A DNA stretch of 64,000 bases from Sphyrna mokarran (Eukaryota). The DNA lies in assembly GCA_024679065.1 (NCBI GenBank), contig JAGIQG010000002.1, positions 96,100,001-96,164,000 of the forward strand, given 5' to 3'. The notes beneath the pieces are model-generated. The model saw only the letters and a list, made by a program, of their open reading frames with translations. It searched no databases and was not told the DNA's origin. Below are positions 60,780-61,838 of this stretch, piece after piece (the first letter of the stretch is position 1; each line of letters opens with the position of its first letter). The position numbers and the translations under genes are program-made.

Positions 60780-61404
60780 ATGGACAATGCAAGGATGAAC
60801 TCCTTTCTAGACTATTCTATCATTAATGGAGAAACTGGGACCTGCTCCTCCAGAAGTTACCATGTAGATCCAGGAATTACAACTTATCAGTCTTGTGCCG
60901 TTAACAATAATAACTGCAGCGCTGATGACCGCTATCTCGTGAGCAGAAGCGTCCAAATAGGCGCTCCTCCTCCTTCTCATCACCATCACCAGACTAGCTA
61001 CACACATCATAACAACCTGGGCATCTCCTACAGTGCCCACCCCAACTGTGGGGCAGGATACCCAGCCCAGAGCTTTAACACGGGCTACAGTCATTACTCA
61101 CTGAATCAAGAGACGGATGGCAACGGAGGATACCCTCAGTGTGCTCCTGCTGTCTACCCTGGAAACATTGCCTCAGCTATCAGCCCTCATAACCACGGCT
61201 ATGGCGGGATGGTGGGGCCAGGCCAATATTCCCATCACCCTTACGGGCAGGAACAGCAGAGTTTAGCCCTGGCTGCGGGTTGTCACCCTCTGTCACCTGT
61301 CCATGGTAGTCACCAAGAAGCCTGCTGCTCCCCGTCTGCAGAGACCCCTCCCCCAGCACAAACCTTTGACTGGATGAAGGTGAAGAGGAATCCTCCAAAA
61401 ACAG
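60780..61404 (+). CDS. hoxa1: Hox-A1, coding exon 1
   Basis: [12 protein letters not shown]; short His run; [14 protein letters not shown] (PG1 hexapeptide); canonical donor CAG|GTAAAT at 61405. Two more in-frame donors follow (see findings). Confidence 0.96.
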
Positions 61405-61838
61405 GTAAATTCTCTATTCCAGGTACATTCCTTCTTACAGGTAACTCTTAAGGTCGAAAACCGATACTAATGAGCGAGTCGAGGAAAGCGATTATAAAAG
61501 ACTCGGGCTTTGCAAAAATCTTAATCTGTTGCATGTTGTTCAAGCTGATTTGATGGCCGCACCTTTCGTCTATATTGTCCCGTTCTTTGATCTATCCTTC
61601 TCCTCCCTGTCTTATCAGCATTATGTGAAGCATAATTTAAACATCAGCTAGCTGATGACATGTAACAGTTGTAGAGTAATCCTTTCAGGCTTTCCTGACA
61701 AGACATTTCTAAACTACTGAAAGGGTAATGATTGATTATCAATGCAGTAAAACTAGTCCAGCAGTTGTCGCATTCTATCTTTTAAATCCTCTTGACTTAC
61801 CTGCTTTGTGATTTTTTTTTGTGTGCCCCCCGATTTAG

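What the first reader, a model, noticed from the sequence alone, without database searches (positions are those of the whole stretch)
61402..61451. Three in-frame splice donors in an 18-nt tandem array at the end of Hoxa1 exon 1: a possible linker-length switch
Seen: CAG|GTAAAT (61405), CAG|GTACAT (61423) and CAG|GTAACT (61441) are exactly 18 nt apart (gtaaattctctattccag / gtacattccttcttacag / gtaact). All are phase 1, and no stop occurs until 61449. Using donor 2 or 3 would insert GKFSIP or [12 protein letters not shown] between the FDWM hexapeptide and the homeodomain. Each unit also ends in a pyrimidine tract plus AG|GT, like a recursive splice site. Established: this linker length affects Hox-Pbx/Exd cooperative binding, and Drosophila Ubx varies it by alternative donors and microexons. 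Inference: the array may be a vertebrate analogue. None of the other six genes here has such an array.
Basis: partly seen in the sequence, partly recalled or inferred. Interest (0 to 1): 0.75.

Follow-up and report, generated by a model that had tools for sequence, protein, structure and literature searches.

The report
Spare splice donors in shark Hoxa1
A shark Hoxa1 gene has two extra, in-frame copies of its splice donor 18 and 36 bases into its intron, likely leftovers of an old small duplication that are probably little used, so a regulated switch in the protein's linker length is possible but unsupported.

Summary
Three CAG|GTA donors sit 18 nt apart (61404, 61422, 61440), all phase 1, open to a stop at 61449; simulation gave two in-frame extras in 2 of 400,000 intron starts. 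The gene is Hoxa1 of a shark close to Mustelus asterias. Donors 2 and 3 match consensus about as well as donor 1 (7/9, 8/9 versus 8/9), so use is plausible. Nothing shows use. The linker is 24 residues in 110 of 111 homologues and 26 of 27 cartilaginous-fish proteins from 23 species; none carries +6 or +12, although another shark Hoxa1 isoform was captured. None of 26 read-through frames from distant vertebrates shows the signature. The closest precedent is junction-spanning tandem repeats with spare donors (human F7: first site only; 6-16 and CBS: first three used), not Ubx. The recursive-site idea fails on geometry. Best reading: a decayed duplication whose latent donors are tolerated because they are in frame (0.55). 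Appreciable unregulated use 0.2; regulated switch 0.1; ZEB-site cluster 0.1. No RNA reads or shark intron DNA could be examined, so usage and conservation among sharks remain open.

The parts
60780..61404 (+). Hoxa1 exon 1, coding part (208 codons plus one base)
   Evidence: 207 of 208 residues identical to Mustelus asterias Hoxa1a P0125
61365..61376 (+). FDWM core of the Pbx-binding hexapeptide
   Evidence: aligns with HoxB1 of PDB 1b72 through P0125
61401..61444 (+). decayed 18-nt tandem array spanning the exon 1/intron junction
   Evidence: TRF period 18, 2.4 copies, 73% matches, score 53; unit comparison
61402..61410 (+). donor 1, the only one that gives the conserved 24-residue linker; 8/9 consensus
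61420..61428 (+). donor 2 (candidate), +18 nt, in frame, would add GKFSIP; 7/9 consensus
   Evidence: use untested
61438..61446 (+). donor 3 (candidate), +36 nt, in frame, would add [12 protein letters not shown]; 8/9 consensus
   Evidence: use untested
61449..61458 (+). in-frame TAA followed by a weak fourth AG|GT at +48 (perhaps a decayed fourth core)
   Evidence: (duplex -4.1 kcal/mol)
61405..61838 (+). Hoxa1 intron, 434 nt from donor 1
61792..61803 (+). two branch-point candidates (A at 61795, 61799) overlapping a 9-nt exact complement of the donor consensus
   Evidence: function untested
61839..62191 (+). Hoxa1 exon 2, coding part with the homeobox
   Evidence: 115 of 116 residues identical to P0125

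Best explanation
The start of this shark Hoxa1 intron carries two extra in-frame donor sequences 18 and 36 nt after the real one, likely left by an old tandem duplication across the exon/intron junction, and splicing likely uses the first donor for nearly all messages. Shown: three donors, their spacing, frame and consensus match, and that only donor 1 yields the 24-residue linker of other vertebrates. Inferred: (1) an 18-nt unit holding the last exon bases and the intron start was copied twice and then decayed; (2) sites this close cannot easily hold U1 together, so the first wins, helped by a purine-rich exon end and a pyrimidine-rich stretch just behind donor 1; (3) the array persists because any leak to donor 2 or 3 adds 6 or 12 residues without breaking the frame, whereas an out-of-frame copy with equally strong donors would have been selected against. 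In-frame spacing is then a survival filter, not proof of a switch.
For: Linker of 24 residues in 110 of 111 proteins that hold both motifs (143 examined, 32 without the RTNF match set aside). 26 of 27 cartilaginous-fish proteins from 23 species have 24, one has 25, none 30 or 36, with all members of the four clusters read; the same clusters did catch a different isoform, Heptranchias X2, 24 residues shorter in exon 1. The nearest relative (322 of 324 residues) appears with one model. 0 of 26 intron read-through frames from distant vertebrates show the [STPA]-G signature at +18 or +36 (3 of 26 end before position 13), and 0 of 2 fish-like loci have an extra donor (L001, L002). Precedent: human F7 intron 7, 37-nt units, identical spare donors, only the first used even when later ones are stronger (PMC1557585). 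Bias to the downstream site sets in beyond about 30 nt and is complete at 45 nt (PMC3413131), so +18 is below it. Last 30 exon bases 70% purine; intron +6 to +36 71% pyrimidine; TIA binding 10-28 nt behind an upstream donor favours that donor (PMC2964331; binding here is inferred only).
Against: Donor 3 equals donor 1 in consensus match (8/9) and nearly in duplex energy (-8.0 versus -8.3 kcal/mol; donor 2 -7.1; the six other Hox donors -5.2 to -8.8), and +36 lies in the range where downstream use is rising. In the 6-16 and CBS arrays the first two spare donors are used (as described in PMC1557585). The 6-nt cores are intact while spacers have diverged; neutral decay would keep both cores about 1-2% of the time, though the locus was picked out because they are intact. 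Spacer similarity is marginal (p = 0.06), so duplication is not established. Protein catalogues miss minor isoforms, the window's own species is not shown to be among them, and it is unknown whether the catalogued sharks have the array at all.
Confidence: 0.55

Rival explanations
1. Leaky competition: donors 2 and 3 are used in an appreciable, fixed share of transcripts (10% or more together), giving +6 and +12 residue Hoxa1 that is tolerated but not regulated, as in the human 6-16 and CBS arrays.
For: Near-equal donor strength; 2 of the 7 GT 9-mers at 8/9 or better on the window's + strand lie in this array; downstream use rises beyond 30 nt; 6-16 and CBS precedent.
Against: No such isoform in 27 cartilaginous-fish proteins; F7, LMNB2 and PDGF arrays use the first site only; near-invariant linker length suggests inserts are not free of cost.
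Confidence: 0.2
2. One reading: a selected, stage- or tissue-regulated linker switch (24, 30, 36 residues) that tunes Hoxa1-Pbx binding, a shark analogue of the Ubx b element.
For: Inserts fall between hexapeptide and homeodomain, in frame and stop-free; cores kept while spacers diverged; Ubx isoforms differing by a 9-residue b element bind Exd and other partners differently (PMC4186791; PMC5003318).
Against: No trace in protein catalogues; absent from distant vertebrates; if the 25-residue Callorhinchus model P0135 reads the intron start, elephant shark has no AG|GT at +18 (indirect); the inserts are hydrophobic, as expected of read-through pyrimidine tract; in-frame spacing is also expected from a survival filter.
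Confidence: 0.1
3. The cores are kept for a reason other than being cut: a cluster of ZEB-type Z-boxes (CAGGTA) on the DNA in the intron of a hindbrain gene, or extra U1 landing sites on the RNA.
For: CAGGTA is a ZEB-specific Z-box bound in EMSA (PMC2396950); the Hoxa1 intron holds 4 Z/E-boxes (three in the array, one on the other strand near the branch point) against 0.29 expected from the window average and 0-2 in the other six introns; explains intact cores with free spacers.
Against: The hexamer is also the splice consensus, so one copy is forced and the count is after the fact; no binding or conservation data; three of the four are the array itself.
Confidence: 0.1
4. Recursive (AG|GT) splice sites, or plain coincidence without duplication.
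For: Each core is preceded by 9-11 pyrimidine-rich bases and AG; spacer similarity is weak.
Against: Segments of 18 and 36 nt are far below the minimum vertebrate intron length (recalled, about 60-70 nt); the only branch-point match in the first 41 intron bases is 3 nt from the AG of unit 3; coincidence is of order 1 in 100,000 per intron, although a large scan will meet such cases.
Confidence: 0.05

Closest known systems
Junction-spanning minisatellites with 5' pseudo-splice sites (human F7 IVS7, 6-16, CBS IVS13, LMNB2, PDGF; PMC1557585)
   Same: First unit begins about 4 nt inside the exon, so the donor is reiterated at fixed spacing in the intron (F7: last 4 bp of exon 7; here the TRF array starts at 61401).
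   Different: Only 2.4 copies, 73% alike, spacers decayed; the spare 9-mers each differ from donor 1 at one base; unit is 18 nt, in frame and stop-free; lies in a Hox linker; length polymorphism and use unknown.
Drosophila Ubx linker isoforms (b element, microexons mI, mII)
   Same: Optional in-frame residues would fall between the hexapeptide and homeodomain; 6 and 12 residues here, 9 for the b element.
   Different: Ubx isoforms are demonstrated, stage- and tissue-regulated and functionally distinct; here none is observed, the donors come as a repeat, and the group-1 linker is near invariant in length.
Mammalian Hoxa1-T
   Same: Alternative splicing of Hoxa1 at exon 1 (bioRxiv 10.1101/2023.04.24.538176, passages).
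   Different: Hoxa1-T comes from a splice inside exon 1 that shifts frame after residue 114 and drops the homeodomain; this array is at the exon end and keeps both motifs.
Recursive splice sites
   Same: Pyrimidine stretch then AG|GT.
   Different: Sits 18 and 36 nt from the donor of a 434-nt intron, with no room for a lariat.

Membership tests
Junction-spanning minisatellite with 5' pseudo-sites (F7 type) | first repeat unit spans the exon/intron boundary | tested here: met
   TRF array 61401-61444 covers the junction 61404/61405
Junction-spanning minisatellite with 5' pseudo-sites (F7 type) | donor sequence reiterated in the intron at the unit period | tested here: met
   6-nt core identical three times at 18 nt; 9-mers differ from donor 1 by one base each
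Junction-spanning minisatellite with 5' pseudo-sites (F7 type) | many near-identical units (exact donor copies) | tested here: not met
   2.4 copies, 73% matches; non-core agreement 7/12, 5/12, 2/12; hence filed as a decayed variant, not a member
Junction-spanning minisatellite with 5' pseudo-sites (F7 type) | copy number varies between alleles | not testable with these tools
   no reads or contigs of this locus were laid at the junction
Ubx-type linker-length isoforms | optional segment lies in frame between hexapeptide and homeodomain | tested here: met
   as potential only: +6 and +12 residues, no stop
Ubx-type linker-length isoforms | isoforms exist as mRNA or protein | tested here: inconclusive
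   none in 111 homologues or 27 cartilaginous-fish proteins; no RNA of this species could be read
Ubx-type linker-length isoforms | stage- or tissue-regulated ratios and altered PBC-cofactor binding | not testable with these tools
   needs RNA series and binding assays
Ubx-type linker-length isoforms | alternative sites conserved across relatives | tested here: inconclusive
   absent in 26 distant read-through frames and 2 fish-like loci; indirect absence in Callorhinchus; shark introns not seen
Recursive splice site | AG|GT preceded by a pyrimidine tract | tested here: met
   9-11 nt tracts before cores 2 and 3
Recursive splice site | upstream segment long enough to be removed as an intron, with a branch point | tested here: not met
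   18 and 36 nt; only branch-point match 3 nt from the AG; minimum length recalled
ZEB Z-box cluster | CAGGTA hexamers present above background | tested here: met
   4 versus 0.29 expected, counted after the fact
ZEB Z-box cluster | ZEB occupancy and repression | not testable with these tools
   needs ChIP, EMSA or reporter

The most novel reading that the evidence does not exclude
A shark lineage turned a small junction-spanning duplication into a three-position dial for Hoxa1 linker length (24, 30, 36 residues), used in regulated proportions and changing Pbx co-binding: a vertebrate counterpart of the Ubx linker isoforms that arose independently.
Probability: 0.1. Interest if true: 0.65.

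Novelty: new variant of a known kind. Interest (0 to 1): 0.27.

Why it matters
If the spare donors are silent, this is a tidy natural case of three near-equal donors within 36 nt where the first wins, useful only as a test substrate for donor choice. If they are used, it would be a natural length series in a linker that has stayed 24 residues across jawed vertebrates, making the question of whether group-1 Hox linker length matters for Pbx binding directly testable. One junction count decides between these.

Tried and rejected
No whole genome is held for the window. Sequencing-run search: no RNA holder listed; 11 runs, none with half the words. Four of the 11 were laid on 61100-62000: no contig crossed the Hoxa1 junction; pieces at 61365-61404/6 had 5-6 other letters in 40-42 and unlike flanks, read as a group-1 paralogue; one X5 contig matched exon 1 at 61102-61214 and stopped short. 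This says nothing for or against donor use or conservation. Search for short proteins holding the exon end plus read-through found no candidate. Metagenome scan gave 2 loci, both fish-like, one a paralogue. Earlier findings: nothing in four look-ups. RNA structure as a mask for donors 2 and 3: a long-range fold paired them with the intron's 3' end, but the region folds no better than shuffles (z 0.38; 63 of 100 shuffles as good) and accessibility changed with the span allowed; rejected. Assembly artefact: rejected because the units differ at 5 to 10 of 18 positions. Retinoic-acid response element: AGGT-type half-sites are spaced 12, 12 and 6 nt, not the recalled DR1/2/5; rejected. The skate/horn shark HoxA paper gives no Hoxa1 intron data in the passages seen and its supplements could not be read; they might bear on conservation. 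Two papers asked for by id were not held.

Full report
Setting. The window holds seven Hox genes in a row, read from their hexapeptides and homeodomains as HoxA7 to HoxA1 (names other than Hoxa1 assigned by me from order and recalled motifs). The last is Hoxa1: its best hits are shark, chimaera and ray Hoxa1 proteins, and it matches Mustelus asterias at 207 of 208 and 115 of 116 residues, so the source is likely a shark of that order. No genome is held.

Observation. Donor-like sites end exon-side at 61404, 61422 and 61440, all phase 1, reading open to TAA at 61449; they would add GKFSIP or [12 protein letters not shown]; exon 2 begins at 61839. TRF calls the stretch a period-18 array of 2.4 copies, score 53, joint best of 41 rows. 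It is more than chance for one gene: 23 of 400,000 simulated intron starts had two more cores within 60 nt, 2 had both in frame and 1 had equal spacing; it is the only such triple on the + strand, against 1 in 10 simulated windows. The six other introns show no alternative site above 6/9 in 100 nt.

What the array is made of. The 6-nt core is identical three times, but outside it the units agree at only 7/12, 5/12 and 2/12 positions; the best pair has p = 0.06 against shuffles of the same letters. So it is not a fresh slip and not an assembly stutter. If it is a duplication it is old, and neutral decay would keep both cores only 1-2% of the time. That figure is the best argument for selection on the cores, but it is weak, because the locus was noticed for having intact cores. 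An old array would probably be shared by other sharks, whose HoxA introns change slowly (skate and horn shark intron lengths nearly equal; PMC2746220, passages; this window's A4 and A5 introns, 348 and 469 nt, match them within a few bases). That is inference; I could not see any other shark's Hoxa1 intron.

Donor strength. Against the recalled 9-nt consensus the three score 8, 7 and 8; duplex energies with its complement, taken from the window, are -8.3, -7.1 and -8.0 kcal/mol, against -5.2 to -8.8 for the six other Hox donors. Only 7 GT 9-mers on the + strand reach 8/9 and two are here. The extra sites are therefore real candidates. Context leans to donor 1: the last 30 exon bases are 70% purine and intron +6 to +36 is 71% pyrimidine, while the bases 10-28 behind donor 3 are not pyrimidine-rich. 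TIA proteins bound 10-28 nt behind an upstream donor favour it (PMC2964331, passages); whether they bind this mixed C/U stretch is untested.

Comparative evidence. Of 280 hits, the 120 listed plus 23 cluster members were examined: 111 of 143 hold both the hexapeptide and RTNF, and 110 of these have a 24-residue linker, one 25; the 32 set aside are 26 unspliced read-through frames and 6 odd or partial models. All members of the four cartilaginous-fish clusters were read: 27 proteins of 23 species, 26 with 24 and one with 25, none with 30 or 36. These clusters can catch isoforms: Heptranchias X2 lacks 24 residues in exon 1. Either those species lack the array or their models do not use it; both weigh against a conserved, abundant switch, neither excludes a private or minor one. 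The 26 read-through frames, at most 62% identical to the shark exon, never show the [STPA]-G pattern at +18 or +36 (3 have G at position 7 without it; 3 end before position 13). Two fish-like loci have a single donor. The 25-residue Callorhinchus model, if it reads the intron start, has no AG|GT at +18; that reading is uncertain.

Direct tests failed. No RNA holder was listed, and the four runs laid gave no contig across the Hoxa1 junction. These carry no weight either way.

Mechanism. Most likely (0.55): a decayed junction-spanning duplication with latent donors; donor 1 gives nearly all mRNA; the array survives because leaks stay in frame. The closest precedent is the class described in PMC1557585 (abstract, Introduction and Discussion read): minisatellites whose first unit spans the junction. 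In F7 only the first of 5-9 identical donors is used, even when later ones are made stronger; LMNB2 and PDGF behave alike; in 6-16 and CBS the next two are also used (these four seen only as summarised there). Repeats at exon-intron boundaries altering splicing are also described for human paralogues (PMC2812944, passages). Against the best reading, duplicated strong donors shift to the downstream site beyond about 30 nt and fully at 45 nt (PMC3413131, passages), which puts donor 3 at +36 in the uncertain zone; hence 0.2 for appreciable unregulated use. The regulated switch gets 0.1: the Ubx precedent is real (PMC4186791 and PMC5003318, passages) but nothing here shows isoforms. A DNA-level reading gets 0.1: the core is the ZEB Z-box (PMC2396950, passages) and the intron has 4 such boxes against 0.29 expected. 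Recursive splicing fails: the segments are 18 and 36 nt and lack a usable branch point.

What is in print. Six searches of the held library (listings only, the top 15 of 30 and of 279) showed no paper on extra donors in shark Hoxa1 or on linker-length isoforms of a vertebrate group-1 Hox gene; most subscription papers are not held. The known Hoxa1 splice variant, Hoxa1-T, is a frame-shifting splice inside exon 1 (bioRxiv 10.1101/2023.04.24.538176, passages). PMC2876039 (passages) added only that the linker helps classify Hox proteins.

Verdict. A real, unusual sequence feature; a short, decayed, in-frame variant of a known kind of repeat-made spare donor. Interest 0.27, with a 0.1 chance of a finding worth 0.65. 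A junction count and a 60-base alignment across sharks would settle it.

Noticed in passing
window 61795-61803: An exact complement of the 9-nt donor consensus (so a perfect donor on the minus strand, and the same letters as the recalled U1 5' end) overlaps both branch-point candidates; it is the only copy in the window. Could be an antisense-transcript donor or chance; the intron fold gives no support for pairing with the array.
   Followed up: partly
window 61350-61356; P0123 versus P0122: Heptranchias Hoxa1 isoform X2 lacks 24 residues just before the hexapeptide, as from a 72-nt in-frame splice inside exon 1. The matching pyrimidine-rich AG exists here at 61355-61356, but no GT at the matching upstream place.
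   Followed up: partly
window 61402-61446: All three donors lack the usual G at +5 and rely on a full CAG on the exon side, whereas L001 and L002 have G at +5.
   Followed up: no
window 47629-47671: HoxA3 intron has a weak (6/9) in-frame, stop-free GT site 42 nt after its donor; probably background.
   Followed up: no
P0135: A Callorhinchus milii model has a 25-residue linker differing from the usual one over five to six residues at the junction, otherwise matching P0003 where compared; likely a shifted gene model.
   Followed up: partly
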